A stretch of DNA of 21,353 nucleotides from Candidatus Heimdallarchaeota archaeon (lineage in GTDB: Archaea; Asgardarchaeota; Heimdallarchaeia; Heimdallarchaeales; Heimdallarchaeaceae). A program made the translations under genes and the position numbers. Shown one piece after another: positions 7,512 to 12,184 of this stretch (its first letter is position 1; every line of letters starts with the position of its first letter). The notes under the pieces are model-generated. The model searched no databases. It was given only the letters and a program-made list of their open reading frames with translations, and had not been told where the DNA came from. The stretch lies in assembly GCA_030668825.1 (NCBI GenBank), contig DAOVET010000041.1, positions 1 through 21,353 of the forward strand. Reading direction: 5' to 3'.

Positions 7512-8492
7512 TTAGCGAAGAGTCTTTGTAGTTTCATTTTTCTTACTCTTTTCTTTTGTTATTTCCCAAAAACGTTTTTTGTTATAGATTCTAAGTTCTA
7601 AAAGCCCCTTATTTTCCATTTTCTTAAGAATTTGTAAAACTTGTTCTTCAGAAAAATCAGGAAAAAGAGAAAATACTTGCTCTTCTCTTAATGGATGTCT
7701 TTGAGTAATATCCAGTATTTTTGTTTCAGGATCAGCTTCTGAATCTACACTTTCAATTAATATTTCATCATAATGAGAAATACTTTCAGCCCCTAGAATT
7801 TTCCTGGCTGCAATTAACCGATCTTGTGTTGGCATTTTAACCCATTTCTCTGCTGGAGGACGAATTGGAATGTTAATGAATGTTTTATCAACTTCTAGAA
7901 AATCAATAAGTTTCTTGATTCCCTTAAGTGTCTCCGAAGAATCATTTAAATCTTTAACTAACATTACTTCCATCCAAATTTGATTCCTATATTCCTCTCT
8001 AAAAGTTTTCATCCCTTGTATGATCTTATTAAGTTCAAGTTCTTTGTGTGGTCTATTTATTACTCGAAACATGTTAGCTTCAAAAACATCTAAGGTTGGC
8101 ATAACTACATTAGCTTCAAGAAGATCAGCTCTAACTCCCTTTTGATACAGAAGTGCCCCATTTGTGATTATTGCTACAGGTTTTGTAGATAATTTCTTAA
8201 TTGCTGATATTAGCTTCCCTAGTTTTTTGTACAACGTTGGTTCCCCATCTCCAACTATAGTAATATAATCAATGTCTATGTTTTGTTTAAGAGCTTCCTT
8301 AAGCTCATCAACTATTTCTTCTACTGGGTAAAACTCTTCTCTTTTATTTGTAAAATTAGTTGTTCTTCCTAACTGGCAGTAGATACAAGAAAAATTGCAT
8401 GTTTTGGGTGGAATAGGACTGACACCTAGAGAACGGCCTAACCTTCTAGATGGAACAGGACCAAATAAATACTTGAAGTTTTTTTTGTCCAT
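7512..8492 (-). CDS. Radical SAM protein, COG0731 (TYW1-related) family, with probable C-terminal winged-helix-like extension
   Basis: Family signature FGPVPSRRLGRSLG, CxxxCxxC motif CNFSCIYC, GDGEPTLY and RPPAE. An AGGTGA RBS precedes the ATG. Confidence 0.9.
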   Translation of the reverse strand: MDKKNFKYLFGPVPSRRLGRSLGVSPIPPKTCNFSCIYCQLGRTTNFTNKREEFYPVEEIVDELKEALKQNIDIDYITIVGDGEPTLYKKLGKLISAIKKLSTKPVAIITNGALLYQKGVRADLLEANVVMPTLDVFEANMFRVINRPHKELELNKIIQGMKTFREEYRNQIWMEVMLVKDLNDSSETLKGIKKLIDFLEVDKTFINIPIRPPAEKWVKMPTQDRLIAARKILGAESISHYDEILIESVDSEADPETKILDITQRHPLREEQVFSLFPDFSEEQVLQILKKMENKGLLELRIYNKKRFWEITKEKSKKNETTKTLR

Positions 8493-8575
8493 TTTTTCAC
8501 CTATCTCTTCTCAGGTATGACTGGTTTTTTTTCACAATTACATCTGACTAAAGTTTAGGAATTAATTTATTCTGA

Positions 8576-8610
8576 TTAAATCAATACTCATATTCGGTTA
8601 AAAACTTATT
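8576..8610 (-). promoter_or_regulatory. Promoter candidate of the radical SAM gene with a third copy of the palindrome
   Basis: The minus strand reads AATAAG-TTTTTAAC (TATA at 8604-8597) followed by TGAGTATTGATTTA (8590-8577). Confidence 0.55.
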
Positions 8611-8651
8611 TTTAAAACTTGAGCTATGACATGAATTTTTTACAAATTCTT

Positions 8652-8798
8652 TAGAAGTGCCTGAAGCACATCATGGGGACGCCACATCCCCTCCTACACC
8701 GCCCACATCCTCTTACTAAGATGCTTACGGTTCGCTTTTGGAAGTTCGTTGGATATAGCCCCGAGGATCACCATAGTACTGGTGCATAGCTATAATCC
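8652..8798 (-). ncRNA. Candidate structured non-coding RNA of unknown class (~147 nt)
   Basis: Hand count gives 74/147 GC (~50%) in an AT-rich intergenic region. Nested helices are GGAUUAUAGC/GCUAUAUCC, CACCA/UGGUG, ACCG/CGGU, GCAUCUU/AGGAUGU, UAGGA/UUCUA, GGGGAUG/CGUCCCC and GUGC/GCAC. The G-U pairs work only on the minus strand. A TTTAAATA box lies at 8830-8823. Confidence 0.65.
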
Positions 8799-8822
8799 TT
8801 CAAGGTATAATCTACACTACCC

Positions 8823-8832
8823 TATTTAAATA
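8823..8832 (-). promoter_or_regulatory. TATA box positioned for the candidate ncRNA
   Basis: The palindromic TATTTAAATA ends about 25 nt before the first paired G at 8798. Confidence 0.55.
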
Positions 8833-9030
8833 CCAAAAAAATGTACAAAAAACAGGTTATAAGAATAGAATAAAGCAAAATTCATGTGCTTATGAAGGAA
8901 CCTAAATAAGGTGAGTTTACCCTTTAACTGTAATAGAGCTTAATTCTTTCGTATGTTCATATTTATTATACACAAAACATTTTTATGTTTCTAAGTAATA
9001 ACTGTTTTTCGATACATCTTCTCTAGTCAG

Positions 9031-10083
9031 GTGGTGAAAGTGGTGAAAGATCTAGATAGAAAAATACGAGTGGGGATTCCTAGAGCTTTGCTATTCTACA
9101 AGTTTTCAGATTTGTGGATAACTTTCTTTGAACAATTAGGAGCTGAGGTCGTCATCTCTCCAGAAACAACTAAAAAAATTAAAAATGAAGCAGTTAGGCT
9201 TGCACCTGATGAAGATTGTTACTCAACTAAGTTGTACTTTGGTCATGTTATGGCCTTAAAAGACAAAGTTGATTACTTATTTGTTCCTAGATTTGGTGGG
9301 CGTAAAAAGAAATATGTTGGATGTCCAAAGTTCATTGGTTTAGCTGAAGTATTGAGATCAATGATTCCTGATTTACCTGAGATACTTATGCCTCATTATA
9401 ATCGTGGTATGGATAAGCATACTAGAATTGGTCTTCTGGTTCGAGCTTTTAGATTAGGAACAATTTTCAGAAATAATCCTTTTGTAATAATAAGAGCTAT
9501 TAGTAGAGCTTTCAAAGCTCAAAAGTTTCATAATAAAACTATGATTATAGATGAGGAAAAACTTCGAAAATGGGAAAACTCTGAAATCATATTAAATGAC
9601 TTTCCTATTTATAATGAAAATGAAAGACAATTAAAAATAGCACTAGTAGGTCATTCTTATGTTCTGAATGATCCCTTTTCATCTCTGAGTATTCGATCAT
9701 TACTTCAAGATTATGGAGTAGATATTGTCACTTCTGAACAGATGCCTAGAAATTTGATTGAGAAACAAATGGCTAGACTTGAGTATGATATTTACTTTGA
9801 TTTTGAAAGGGAAATACTGGGTACAATTATGCATTTCATTGAAAGTAAAACTGTTGATGGTATAATTCATTTATTGATTTTCAGTTGTGGTCCAGATTCC
9901 ATCGCAGGTGAGATAGCTGCTAGATACTCGAAAAGAGATCCAACAATCCCTCTTTTGCAGCTTGTTTTTGATGAGTTAACAGGTGAAGCAGGAATGAGAA
10001 CAAGAATAGAAGCATTTGTGGATATGCTCAGAAGAAGTATTGACGAAAAAGTTATACTTCTCACCACACAGGTACATATTTGA
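9031..10083 (+). CDS. Acyl-CoA dehydratase activase-related protein (DUF2229 / COG3580-like)
   Basis: Motifs VGIPRALLFY, EDCYSTKLYFGHV, GCPKFIGL, FSCGPDS and DELTGEAGMRTRIEAFVDML. Several GTG starts are possible (9031-9043). Confidence 0.85.
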   Translation: MVKVVKDLDRKIRVGIPRALLFYKFSDLWITFFEQLGAEVVISPETTKKIKNEAVRLAPDEDCYSTKLYFGHVMALKDKVDYLFVPRFGGRKKKYVGCPKFIGLAEVLRSMIPDLPEILMPHYNRGMDKHTRIGLLVRAFRLGTIFRNNPFVIIRAISRAFKAQKFHNKTMIIDEEKLRKWENSEIILNDFPIYNENERQLKIALVGHSYVLNDPFSSLSIRSLLQDYGVDIVTSEQMPRNLIEKQMARLEYDIYFDFEREILGTIMHFIESKTVDGIIHLLIFSCGPDSIAGEIAARYSKRDPTIPLLQLVFDELTGEAGMRTRIEAFVDMLRRSIDEKVILLTTQVHI

Positions 10084-10097
10084 GGAGGAAAAAGAAG

Positions 10098-11189
10098 ATG
10101 CCATTATCTTTCCCATACGTTGGAACCTTTACTTATGTGTTCGAATCTATTGCAAGAGGGATGAAAAGAGATGATATTATTGTTCCTGATGAACCTACTT
10201 ATCGCACTAAACAGCTAGGTTCTCAACATTCTTCAGAATTTGTTTGTACTCCTTTCAAAATGCTTCTTGGTTCAATAATTGAAGTCATTGAAAAAGGAGC
10301 CTATGAGATAGTTGCAACAGTTTTTGTTGATTATTGTAGACTTGGGTATTATTCTCCTCTTTATAAAATTATTCTCGATGATTTAGGGTATGACTTTGAT
10401 CTAATCAACTTGGATTGGTTTAATAAAGTTGAATTCTTTACTAGTTTCAAAAAACTTGCATGTAATGTGAATGCTGTTCAGGCTTTTCAAGCATTCAGAG
10501 TTGGGTGGATTAAGAACAGATACATTGACCAAATAGACAAAACACTCTACAGCTATGGGGCTGTTGAAATCGAAAAAGGAGCTGCATACAAAGTTGCTCA
10601 TAAACTTTACAGACAGGTAGTTGAGACAGAGGGGATGAAGAATATCCGAATGCTTCCAGAAATTATTCAAAAAACGTTTGATGATGCAGTTGAAATTGAT
10701 ACAGAAGCTAACCCCCTAAAAGTAGGTGTTGTTGGAGAATTATATGCAGTTGTAGAACCTGCGATCAATCTTGACATAATGAGAAGACTAAATGATATAG
10801 GAGTTGTCACTGAAACACCTATTACATTTACAAGATGGATAGATTTAGGGCAAAGAATGAATCCTTTCAAGAAGTGGCATTATAAAGCATGTATAAAACA
10901 TGCAAAACCATATGTTAGATATCCTCTTGGAGGTAAAACTAGGGAATCTCTGGGAGCTGTAATTGAATATAAAGAAAAAGGATGGGATGGAGTTATTCAT
11001 TTGTATCCTTTCACTTGTATGCCTGAAATAATTTCTAGGAGTATTTTACCTCAAGTGAGCAGAGAACATGATATGCCTGTTCTTTCTCTTGTTCTAGATG
11101 AACATACAGGAGAAGCAGGTATTCAAACTAGATTAGAAGCTTTTGTTGATCTTTTAGAACGTAAAAGGAATGATAGAAATGGATTTTAA
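10098..11189 (+). CDS. 2-hydroxyacyl-CoA dehydratase-related CoA protein activase component (COG3581-like)
   Basis: Motifs SEFVCTPFKMLLG, CRLGYY, VGVVGELY, PFTCMPE and DEHTGEAGIQTRLEAFVDLL. A GAGGAGG RBS precedes ATG 10098. Confidence 0.85.
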   Translation: MPLSFPYVGTFTYVFESIARGMKRDDIIVPDEPTYRTKQLGSQHSSEFVCTPFKMLLGSIIEVIEKGAYEIVATVFVDYCRLGYYSPLYKIILDDLGYDFDLINLDWFNKVEFFTSFKKLACNVNAVQAFQAFRVGWIKNRYIDQIDKTLYSYGAVEIEKGAAYKVAHKLYRQVVETEGMKNIRMLPEIIQKTFDDAVEIDTEANPLKVGVVGELYAVVEPAINLDIMRRLNDIGVVTETPITFTRWIDLGQRMNPFKKWHYKACIKHAKPYVRYPLGGKTRESLGAVIEYKEKGWDGVIHLYPFTCMPEIISRSILPQVSREHDMPVLSLVLDEHTGEAGIQTRLEAFVDLLERKRNDRNGF

Positions 11190-11209
11190 AATTATAGGAG
11201 ATAAAAAAA

Positions 11210-12184
11210 ATGATTGATAGTAAAGAGAAATATTTTCTTGGTGTTGATGTTGGATCTATAAGTACCAACTTAGCTGTAATTAATAATTCAAAAGAATTGA
11301 TAGAATCAGTCTATATTCGCACAGAAGGTAAACCAGTGGAATCAGTTCAAAAAGGAATCAAATTAATGAGAGATCAGCTTGGAGAAGACCTTGCGATAAC
11401 AGGTGCTGGATCAACTGGAAGTGCGAGGAAATTGACAGGTGTAATAATTGGTGCTGATATCGTCAAAAACGAAATAACCGCTCATGCTTTAGCTTCTTTA
11501 CATTATAACCCCGATGTTCAGACAGTTATGGAGATAGGTGGACAAGATAGTAAAATAATCATTATTCGCAATGGGATTGTTATAGACTTTGCTATGAATA
11601 CAGTTTGTGCAGCTGGTACTGGTTCCTTTCTAGATATGCAAGCTAATAGACTAGAAATACCTATAGAGAAATTTGGAGAATTAGCTTTACAATCTGATAA
11701 TGCGGTTTCAATTGCTGGAAGATGTACAGTTTTTGCAGAAAGTGATATGATTCATAAACAGCAGTTGGGTCATCCAACTAAAGATATTATCAAAGGTTTG
11801 TGCGAAGCTTTAGGTAGGAATTACTTAAATAATGTTGGGAAAGGAAAAGACATTAGACCACCAATAATGTTCCAAGGAGGAGTAGCAGCTAATATTGGCA
11901 TGAAAGTAACTTTCGAGAAATATTTGGAACAAGAGATTATTGTACCTGAAAACTATGCTGTGATGGGTGCTATAGGTGCAGCAATTCTTGCTCAGGAAAA
12001 TGCAACAAAAAGACCTAAGAAATCGAATTTTCAGAGCTGGGATATTTCTGAAATGGATTTCCAAACTTCTGGTTTTGAGTGTGATGGATGCTCTAACATA
12101 TGTGAAATTGTTGAAATTCGCAGAAATGATGAATTAATAGCTAGATGGGGGAGTAGATGTAGGAAGTGGGATTTAATAGATTAG
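11210..12184 (+). CDS. 2-hydroxyacyl-CoA dehydratase activator (HgdC/BadFG-type ASKHA ATPase, [4Fe-4S])
   Basis: Motifs GVDVGSIST, EIGGQDSK, MNTVCAAGTGSFLD, RCTVFAESD and GGVAAN, plus a C-terminal CxxCxxxC...RC tail. A GGAG RBS is present. Confidence 0.92.
   Translation: MIDSKEKYFLGVDVGSISTNLAVINNSKELIESVYIRTEGKPVESVQKGIKLMRDQLGEDLAITGAGSTGSARKLTGVIIGADIVKNEITAHALASLHYNPDVQTVMEIGGQDSKIIIIRNGIVIDFAMNTVCAAGTGSFLDMQANRLEIPIEKFGELALQSDNAVSIAGRCTVFAESDMIHKQQLGHPTKDIIKGLCEALGRNYLNNVGKGKDIRPPIMFQGGVAANIGMKVTFEKYLEQEIIVPENYAVMGAIGAAILAQENATKRPKKSNFQSWDISEMDFQTSGFECDGCSNICEIVEIRRNDELIARWGSRCRKWDLID

What the first reader, a model, noticed from the sequence alone, without database searches (positions are those of the whole stretch)
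8652..8832. Unannotated multi-domain structured RNA with its own promoter, upstream of a TYW1-related radical SAM gene
Seen: a ~50% GC island in a ~540-bp AT-rich intergenic gap folds on the minus strand into three domains. Domain I (8798-8751) is GGAUUAUAGC/GCUAUAUCC enclosing a CACCA/UGGUG hairpin. An unpaired A/C-rich linker AACGAACUUCCAAAAGCGA follows. Domain II (8731-8698) is ACCG/CGGU plus GCAUCUU/AGGAUGU. Domain III (8696-8652) is a three-way junction, UAGGA/UUCUA enclosing GGGGAUG/CGUCCCC and GUGC/GCAC. Several G-U pairs would be A-C mismatches on the plus strand, which fixes the strand, and a TTTAAATA box lies ~25 nt upstream. I do not recognise tRNA, 5S, SRP, RNase P or common riboswitch signatures. 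Inference: a new archaeal ncRNA or cis-regulatory leader, possibly linked to the adjacent radical SAM enzyme, whose relative TYW1 modifies RNA.
Basis: partly seen in the sequence, partly recalled or inferred. Interest (0 to 1): 0.85.

Follow-up and report, generated by a model that had tools for sequence, protein, structure and literature searches.

The report
Mobile guide-RNA minigene without its nuclease
The folded RNA is real, but it is not a new RNA class or a regulator of the neighbouring gene: it is the guide-RNA scaffold of a small jumping element that has lost its TnpB nuclease gene, one of several copies in an Asgard archaeal genome.

Summary
The region lies inside a 237-bp repeat (window 8625-8861, minus strand). 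The genome has 6 full copies. The repeat matches in 14 of 24 other genomes of the same Heimdallarchaeota genus and in 0 of 16 from other genera of the order.

Across 41 copies, 97.6% of cells pair and 15 of 46 pairs show compensatory change, so the structure is under selection.

Domains II and III are homologous to the 3' end of about 19 TnpB genes in this genome. That places them as the omega-RNA (guide scaffold) of IS200/IS605-type elements. In the TnpB elements this stretch is coding; in the repeat it carries stop codons but keeps its pairing.

Three of 3 tested copies have precise empty sites in sister genomes. None has a target duplication, and each sits after TTAT.

Best reading: a TnpB-less miniature element (PATE-like) that expresses an omega-RNA from its own promoter for use in trans by resident TnpB. 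This kind is already described in bacteria.

There is no link to the radical SAM gene. Expression is untested. No Y1 transposase was found in 25 genomes.

The parts
8625..8862 (-). Whole conserved repeat unit. It comprises the TTAT target motif (8862-8859), the element proper (about 8858-8626) and a nearly always conserved A (8625). The boundaries are ambiguous by 3-4 nt.
   Evidence: Six full copies in the genome. The ends are sharp in alignments. Contigs of DNA runs break at 8624/8625 and 8861/8862, and depth inside is about 10-40 times the flanks. Empty sites exist in sister genomes.
8836..8858 (-). Left end (LE), AACCTGTTTTTTGTACA..., preceded by TTAT.
   Evidence: The flank reads T34 T39 A38 T39 of 40 copies. 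The resemblance to the left ends of TnpB elements was judged by eye only and is not significant beyond the promoter box.
8823..8830 (-). TATA-like box TTTAAATA within TTTTGGTATTTAAATAGG. The inferred promoter of the RNA, probably the former tnpB promoter.
   Evidence: TTTAAATA occurs in 28 of 41 copies and TTTATATA in 6 of 41. The same box, TTTTGG(G/A)(A/G)TTTAAATA, lies about 20-35 nt before the ATG of the tnpB genes in L018 and L009. The start site near 8800 is inferred, not observed.
8751..8798 (-). Domain I: outer stem GGAUUAUAGC/GCUAUAUCC enclosing hairpin CACC/GGUG. Specific to the miniature element.
   Evidence: Helices 1 and 2 have 5 of 14 pairs with change on both sides (for example GC to AU in 8 and CG to AU in 10 sequences) and are 96-98% paired.
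8732..8750 (-). Linker with the nearly invariant AAAGCGA. Unpaired in the model.
   Evidence: Nearly invariant columns in A2 and A4, also conserved in TnpB-linked loci. Its role is unknown.
8698..8731 (-). Domain II: CCGU/GCGG plus GCAUCUU/AGGAUGU. Part of the omega-RNA core shared with TnpB-linked loci.
   Evidence: Five of 11 pairs are compensatory within the miniature elements, and 5 of 11 across miniature plus TnpB-linked copies. nhmmer E is 3e-7 to 0.04 against 17 TnpB 3' ends.
8652..8696 (-). Domain III: hairpin GGGGAUG/CGUCCCC (shared with TnpB-linked loci), hairpin GUGC/GCAC, and a proposed closing stem UAGGA/UUCUA.
   Evidence: Hairpins 5 and 6 each have 2 compensatory pairs. Hairpin 5 has 4 of 7 compensatory pairs across both classes. 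The closing stem has none, so it is unverified.
8626..8649 (-). Right end (RE): subterminal hairpin GAAUUU/AAAUUC (8649-8633) and terminal ATGTCAT. The scaffold ends here.
   Evidence: Helix 7 is 97.9% paired with 1 compensatory pair. TCAT is conserved in 39 of 40 copies. TnpB elements end in ...CATCAT or ...AATCAT at the same aligned place.
8606..8625 (-). Predicted guide segment: flanking DNA that would be transcribed after the right end.
   Evidence: Inference only, from how TnpB omega-RNAs are built (Meers et al. preprint PMC10055086, passages read). The 3' flanks differ between copies.

Best explanation
The region is the RNA gene of a 237-bp non-autonomous IS200/IS605-type element. The element is a PATE- or MITE-like derivative of the TnpB-only (IS1341-type) elements that populate this Heimdallarchaeota genome. 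It keeps a left end, a TATA box like that of tnpB genes, the omega-RNA scaffold and the right end. It has lost the tnpB reading frame.

Inferred mechanism:
1. Transcription starts about 25 nt after the TATA box.
2. It runs through domain I and the omega-RNA core (domains II and III plus the 3' hairpin).
3. It crosses the right end into about 16-20 nt of flanking DNA, which becomes the guide.
4. A TnpB protein made by a full-length element binds this RNA in trans.
5. The complex cuts the copy-less allele (TTAT followed by the flank), so that recombination restores the element.

Shown here: the repeat nature, the precise insertions without duplication, the selected RNA structure, the homology to TnpB 3' ends, and the loss of coding capacity. 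Inferred: transcription, TnpB binding, the guide, the cleavage, and which TnpB is used.
For: 1. Copies. There are 6 full copies at 81-100% identity with sharp ends. The repeat matches in 14 of 24 other same-genus genomes, one of them (G002) only by a 36-nt piece, and in 0 of 16 genomes of other genera. All 20 exact hits to a 23-mer lie in records titled Candidatus Heimdallarchaeota.

2. Mobility. All 3 G000 copies tested have empty sites in sister genomes, clean in 10 of the 12 loci compared. There is no target duplication, and each insertion is compatible with TTAT|A. TTAT flanks 34-39 of 40 copies and TCAT ends 39 of 40.

3. Structure. Cells pair at 97.6%, 15 of 46 pairs are compensatory, and 0 of 500 shuffles reach this.

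4. Homology. Element positions about 121-235 hit 17 loci at the 3' end of TnpB ORFs. The 19 TnpB-linked loci share the same two helices. The joint alignment of 62 sequences is 93.9% paired, has 9 of 18 compensatory pairs and 108 compensatory cells against 38.5 +/- 6 in shuffles.

5. Non-coding. In TnpB elements the core encodes ...KSDPKALPKRSVNGVGGYVMYP.... In the element the same frame reads KSEP and then a stop.

6. Partner present. There are 19 TnpB-type loci, about 14 of them full-length. They match Pfam OrfB_IS605 plus the TNB domain, and NCBIfam guided_TnpB at 139.7 bits against a cut-off of 100. All 15 genomes that hold the element also hold TnpB.

7. Precedent. Meers et al. write that PATEs 'often encode omega-RNAs' to be used in trans by TnpB (passages read).
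Against: - No RNA data: no run on record as RNA holds the locus.
- No TnpB-encoding parent with this exact core was found. The nearest TnpB-linked cores are only about 75-80% identical.
- No Y1 TnpA (PF01797) was found in any of 25 genomes of the genus, which are 72-92% complete. The agent of the observed mobility is therefore unknown.
- Similarity of the 5' part to tnpB upstream regions is limited to the promoter box. Only 1 of 14 comparisons beat all 200 shuffles.
- No left-end hairpin was seen.
- The single-sequence fold z-score is only -1.56.
Confidence: 0.82

Rival explanations
1. Inert relic. The element is a decaying deletion product of a TnpB element, and its RNA has no present function. 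The conservation would reflect recent copying only.
For: No expression data. No parent element and no transposase found. Several copies are truncated. The relic mini-ORF is broken in 16 of 41 copies.
Against: Copies as far apart as 76-87% identity keep 97.6% pairing through 42 compensatory cells. One insertion with the same flanks is retained in three species-level genomes (L005, L100, L106). The TATA box is retained in most copies.
Confidence: 0.1
2. A new cis-regulatory leader or riboswitch, or a trans-acting ncRNA functionally tied to the downstream radical SAM gene.
For: It has the same orientation as the gene and ends 133 nt upstream of its start codon. Read-through from the element's promoter into the gene is conceivable.
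Against: The other copies have unrelated flanks. One G000 copy interrupts a conserved ORF of about 137-153 aa. The protein is a generic radical SAM enzyme, far below the TYW1 cut-off. The radical SAM gene and the element together are absent from the syntenic site in G009.
Confidence: 0.02
3. A cut-and-paste (DDE-type) MITE with terminal inverted repeats that merely captured an RNA-like segment.
For: The two ends read as an imperfect inverted repeat, 20 of 27 positions by my own reading. TA dinucleotides lie at both ends.
Against: No target-site duplication in 3 of 3 copies. A TA duplication predicts an empty site 2 nt shorter than observed. The right end is homologous to the right ends of TnpB elements.
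Confidence: 0.03
4. Domesticated guide. The RNA programs a TnpB relative for gene regulation, as with the nuclease-dead TldR-type proteins (recalled), rather than for element maintenance.
For: It has its own promoter and many different flanking 'guides'. Larger TnpB-like ORFs of unknown role exist in the genome.
Against: The resident TnpBs keep the ...NADVNAA... motif of the third RuvC segment. The guides are simply whatever flanks each insertion. No fixed association with any host gene was seen.
Confidence: 0.03

Closest known systems
PATEs (palindrome-associated transposable elements) of IS200/IS605 that carry omega-RNAs, as noted for Geobacillus stearothermophilus by Meers et al. (preprint PMC10055086; passages read)
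   Same: Short, with no protein gene. Left and right ends of a TnpB/IS605-type element. Carries the omega-RNA, which must be used in trans by TnpB encoded elsewhere. Multiple copies.
   Different: The host is archaeal (Heimdallarchaeota). A TATA box sits directly upstream of the RNA. There is an added, covarying 5' domain I that the TnpB-linked RNAs lack. No TnpA was detected in the lineage. Supplementary files of that paper were not seen and may hold closer examples.
Omega-RNA (reRNA) of TnpB in full-length IS200/IS605 or IS1341-type elements (ISDra2 system; recalled from Karvelis 2021, Altae-Tran 2021 and the 2023 structure papers, not read here)
   Same: The scaffold lies at the right end and stops at the element boundary, with the guide expected from the flank. 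It shares helices with the TnpB-linked loci of this genome.
   Different: It does not overlap a tnpB reading frame. The 3' part after the shared hairpin is shorter. No sequence comparison with ISDra2 RNA was made.
IS200/IS605-associated omega-RNAs expressed in archaea (PMC12558985; search listing, start of abstract and a term search only)
   Same: Archaeal omega-RNAs of the same element family.
   Different: That text holds none of the terms PATE, MITE, stand-alone or orphan, and has Asgard only in its reference list. I did not read its body.

Membership tests
TnpB omega-RNA (reRNA) | Sequence and structure homology to the RNA region at the 3' end of tnpB genes | tested here: met
   nhmmer hits to 17 TnpB 3' ends. 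Shared helices are 93.9% paired with 9 of 18 compensatory pairs over 62 sequences.
TnpB omega-RNA (reRNA) | Scaffold abuts the right end of the element, so that the guide comes from flanking DNA | tested here: met
   The conserved block ends at ...CATGTCAT(A) and the flanks are unrelated beyond it. It ends at the same aligned place as ...CATCAT of TnpB elements.
TnpB omega-RNA (reRNA) | Encoded within or next to a tnpB gene | tested here: not met
   No ORF of 40 aa or more overlaps 8625-8861. The tnpB-tail frame carries stops. This is the PATE condition.
TnpB omega-RNA (reRNA) | Transcribed, bound by TnpB, and directs cleavage next to a TAM | not testable with these tools
   No run on record as RNA holds it.
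IS200/IS605-type non-autonomous element (PATE) | Short, non-coding, several copies with identical sharp ends | tested here: met
IS200/IS605-type non-autonomous element (PATE) | Insertion 3' of a conserved tetranucleotide or pentanucleotide, without target duplication | tested here: met
   Three of 3 copies tested, with 10 clean empty sites of 12 loci compared. The TTAT flank is present in 34-39 of 40 copies. The boundary is ambiguous by 3-4 nt.
IS200/IS605-type non-autonomous element (PATE) | Subterminal hairpins at both ends | tested here: inconclusive
   The right-end hairpin GAAUUU/AAAUUC is present. No convincing left-end hairpin was seen in the sequence.
IS200/IS605-type non-autonomous element (PATE) | A Y1 (HUH) TnpA available in trans | tested here: not met
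   PF01797 was found in 0 of 25 genomes of the genus, which are incomplete MAGs (72-92%); the control rang in 6 of 14 known genomes.
Any Rfam 15 family | Covariance-model match | tested here: not met
   No hit at gathering score or at E<=10 in the window region. In 6 related loci the only hit was SNORD24 at E 0.19, below its cut-off.
DDE-type MITE | Terminal inverted repeats plus target-site duplication | tested here: not met
   Imperfect inverted ends only, and no duplication at 3 of 3 sites.
Riboswitch or cis-leader of the radical SAM gene | Conserved position upstream of the same gene family | tested here: not met
   The flanks of the other copies are unrelated.

The most novel reading that the evidence does not exclude
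No TnpA transposase is detectable in this lineage (0 of 25 genomes). Even so, promoter-equipped guide-only minigenes have reached dozens of distinct sites. They may form a dispersed, heritable set of guides that reprogram resident TnpB nucleases in trans, a step towards a CRISPR-like separation of guide and effector in the archaeal group closest to eukaryotes. They may also spread by a route that does not need the classical Y1 transposase.
Probability: 0.1. Interest if true: 0.8.

Novelty: new member of a known kind. Interest (0 to 1): 0.4.

Why it matters
It removes a false lead: this is not a new RNA class and not a regulator of a tRNA-modification-like enzyme. It also supplies a clean, covariation-supported example of a stand-alone omega-RNA gene in Asgard archaea.

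For people working on TnpB it offers three things:
- a compact natural scaffold with a likely TTAT(A) target motif;
- a set of candidate partner nucleases from the same genome;
- a puzzle, namely insertion polymorphism in a genus where no Y1 transposase was found.

For annotators, it shows that GC-rich structured islands in AT-rich archaeal intergenic DNA can be mobile guide-RNA genes that Rfam does not yet cover.

Tried and rejected
- **Rfam.** No family matched in the window at gathering score or at E<=10, nor in 6 related loci. ARAGORN found no tRNA. The sigma-70 and terminator scan showed nothing above shuffles and is not suited to archaea.

- **Expression.** No RNA holder is listed. The two runs labelled RNA-Seq are flagged 'probably DNA', and their short contigs over 8650-8851 and 8856-9023 say nothing about transcription.

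- **Search for a TnpB-encoding parent with the element's core.** Partial hits in G012 and G024 proved to be contig ends. Other partial hits are 5'-truncated copies with no TnpB ORF. The 20 genome-contig hits are all miniature copies or contig-end pieces. A gapped pattern scan of metagenome contigs gave 23 unrelated chance hits. Two viral-contig scans gave 0 hits.

- **Solved structures.** phmmer of one TnpB found no PDB hit at E<=0.001.

- **Left-end and start-codon homology to tnpB upstream regions.** Only the promoter box aligns. One of 14 comparisons beat all 200 shuffles and a second had 9 of 200 reaching it. The idea that domain I derives from the tnpB start and third RuvC-segment codons is therefore suggestive only.

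- **TA-duplicating transposon (IS630/Tc1-like).** Rejected from the empty sites.

- **Literature.** Two searches were run, and I saw only the top 15 and top 12 listings. No paper on such elements in Asgard archaea appeared among them. The Heimdallarchaeum mobile-element paper PMC8813620 contains none of the terms TnpB, IS605, IS200, OrfB, MITE or miniature.

Full report
**1. The observation**

TTTAAATA lies at 8830-8823. Domain I is 8798-8751, followed by an A/C-rich linker, domain II at 8731-8698 and domain III at 8696-8652. The stretch 8652-8798 is 50.3% GC, while the two flanks of the 538-nt gap are 26.5% and 27.8%.

As a single sequence the fold is unremarkable. The minus strand gives z = -1.56, with 12 of 200 shuffles folding at least as well. 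The plus strand gives z = -0.11. No Rfam family matches, even at E<=10, and there is no tRNA.

**2. It is a repeat**

The window is contig C123 of a 2.76-Mb, 33% GC assembly of 138 contigs.

- BLAST and nhmmer find 6 full copies of a 237-bp unit: C123 8625-8861(-), C26, C38, C109, C53 and C92, at 81-100% identity. Similarity stops abruptly at both ends.
- Contigs of two DNA runs break at 8624/8625 and at 8861/8862. Summed depth inside the unit is about 10-40 times that of the flanks.
- The unit matches in 14 of 24 other genomes of the same genus and in 0 of 16 genomes of other genera of the order. In one of the 14 (G002) the only match is a 36-nt piece.
- A 23-mer from domain III occurs in 20 stretches of GTDB species genomes, all titled Candidatus Heimdallarchaeota archaeon. 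All 20 are copies of this unit or contig-end pieces of it.

**3. It has moved, in the IS200/IS605 manner**

For 3 of 3 G000 copies tested (C26, C38, C109), sister genomes hold the same locus without the unit. Ten of the 12 loci compared are clean empty sites.

Filled and empty sites differ by exactly the unit, with no target duplication. A 3-4-nt ambiguity remains at the boundary. The reading that matches the full-length elements is insertion between TTAT and A, with the element ending in TCAT. A TA duplication is excluded, because it predicts an empty site 2 nt shorter than the one observed.

Across 40 copies the left flank reads T34 T39 A38 T39 and the right terminus TCAT is kept in 39. One insertion with identical flanks is shared by three species-level genomes (L005, L100, L106). 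Three near-identical copies with different flanks lie in G017.

**4. The structure is selected**

Forty-one copies from 12 genomes were aligned (A2).

Counting on that structure gives the following:
- 97.6% of 1834 cells pair, against 37.8-51.7% with partners slid by 1-3 columns.
- 15 of 46 pairs change on both sides, against 2-6 when slid and 5.1 +/- 1.5 in shuffles; 0 of 500 shuffles reach 15.
- 42 cells are compensatory, against 8.4 +/- 2.4 in shuffles.

The structure was predicted on the same alignment, which favours it. The copies are related, so the shuffle control overstates significance. The slid control and the count of pairs are the safer measures. Six of the seven helices have at least one compensatory pair. 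The closing stem of domain III (UAGGA/UUCUA) has none and is unverified.

**5. What it is**

nhmmer with the 6 copies also hits element positions about 121-235 in 17 further loci (E 3e-7 to 0.04). Each of these lies at the 3' end of an ORF ending ...INADVNAA.NIL.KSDPKALP.RSV.GVGGYV.YP....

The genome holds 24 matches to the TnpB zinc-ribbon domain. Nineteen are TnpB-type loci of about 420 aa, and about 14 are full-length. flags in-frame stops in 4 G000 loci. They match Pfam OrfB_IS605 plus Cas12f1-like TNB, and NCBIfam guided_TnpB at 139.7 bits against a cut-off of 100.

All 19 end in ...CATCAT or ...AATCAT, after which the flanks diverge. Their consensus fold contains the same domain II and the same hairpin as the unit.

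In a joint alignment of 62 sequences these two helices are 93.9% paired. Nine of 18 pairs are compensatory, and there are 108 compensatory cells against 38.5 +/- 6 in shuffles, with 0 of 500 shuffles reaching that count.

In the TnpB elements this stretch is coding. In the unit the same frame reads KSEP and then a stop. The conservation there is therefore at the RNA level.

This is the position and nature of the TnpB omega-RNA. Its scaffold ends at the right end of the element, so the guide comes from the flank.

**6. Anatomy and origin**

The unit has five parts in order: the left end; a box TTTTGGTATTTAAATAGG; domain I; the omega-RNA core; and a short right end.

The same box precedes the ATG of some tnpB genes by about 20-35 nt (L018 15 of 16 positions, L009 16 of 19). 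Only 1 of 14 comparisons beat all 200 shuffles, and nothing else in the 5' part aligns significantly.

A 20-aa reading frame runs from an ATG in domain I into the KSEP tail. It is intact in 25 of 41 copies. The most divergent copy (L116) still has an open tail reading KSDPKALPKRKVNGVGGDVASP, by my own reading of the sequence printed.

I read the unit as an internal-deletion derivative that brought the tnpB promoter next to the omega-RNA. This is inference. No parent element with the unit's core was found.

**7. Mechanism**

[quoted passage not shown] (preprint PMC10055086, passages read). The RNA would be made from its own promoter and bound in trans by a resident TnpB. Its flank-derived guide would direct cleavage of the TTAT-adjacent empty allele, which favours retention of the element.

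That preprint states that PATEs 'often encode omega-RNAs' that must be acted on in trans, so the kind is known.

All 15 genomes that hold the unit also hold TnpB. The 3 genomes with no TnpB match have no copy of the unit. These genomes are kin, so this is not a statistical test.

**8. Results against, or left open**

- There is no evidence on transcription.
- No Y1 TnpA was found in any of 25 genomes, all incomplete MAGs. What moved these elements is unknown.
- The nearest TnpB-linked cores are only about 75-80% identical, so cross-use by resident TnpB is not assured.
- No left-end hairpin was seen.

**9. The radical SAM gene**

It is a generic radical SAM protein. Its best NCBIfam hits (MoaA 57 bits, TYW1 42.7 bits) are far below their cut-offs.

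In G009 the DUF134 gene and the hgd-like gene are 18 nt apart. The 1.4-kb block 7540-8964, which holds the radical SAM gene and the unit, is absent there. No other copy of the unit shares this neighbourhood.

**10. Verdict**

The interpretation as a new RNA class linked to the radical SAM enzyme is not supported. It is a new member, in Asgard archaea, of a known kind: a TnpB-less IS200/IS605 miniature element carrying an omega-RNA.

Noticed in passing
G000 contigs C105:42696-44594(+), C133:4956-6881(+), C133:8838-10778(-), C4:6136-8076(-), C27:1300-2865(+): Four ORFs of 633-647 aa and one of 522 aa carry only the C-terminal TnpB zinc-ribbon (TNB) domain in Pfam. They are much larger than the about 420-aa TnpBs. 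The model of the miniature element finds no match next to them.
   Followed up: partly
window 7540-8964: The block holding the radical SAM gene and the miniature element is absent from the syntenic site in G009, where the DUF134 and hgd-like genes lie 18 nt apart. Both junctions in the window resemble the single G009 junction over about 30 nt, so the block may be flanked by an imperfect direct repeat.
   Followed up: partly
L061 (G012:C58) 1-1123: In G012 the same intergenic region upstream of the hgd-like gene holds the 3' part of a TnpB element. Its right end ...CACATCAT lies about 45 nt before the sequence shared with the window. This spacer therefore took different insertions in different species.
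   Followed up: partly
G000:C82:6385-6525(+) and G000:C105:7943-7993(+): Two further stand-alone relatives of the omega-RNA core lie in intergenic DNA without a TnpB ORF. The C82 one ends in CTCATGCCATA, like the miniature element, but has a different 5' part and a damaged hairpin.
   Followed up: partly
G000:C26:9617-9853 (L001 301-537): This copy interrupts an ORF that is continuous (137-153 aa) across the empty site in three sister genomes.
   Followed up: partly
window 8788-8726 (minus strand) and the aligned place in other copies: A 20-aa reading frame (MHQYYGDPRGYIQRTSKSEP) runs from an ATG in domain I into the former tnpB tail frame. It is intact in 25 of 41 copies and broken in the rest, so it is probably a relic of the tnpB frame.
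   Followed up: yes
all 25 genomes of the genus: TnpB elements are abundant, up to about 30 matches per genome, yet no Y1 transposase (PF01797) was found in any of these genomes.
   Followed up: partly
window 9031-12184: Downstream on the plus strand lie two DUF2229/HGD-D-like genes and a BcrAD/BadFG-type ATPase, a 2-hydroxyacyl-CoA dehydratase-like cluster. It is unrelated to the finding.
   Followed up: no
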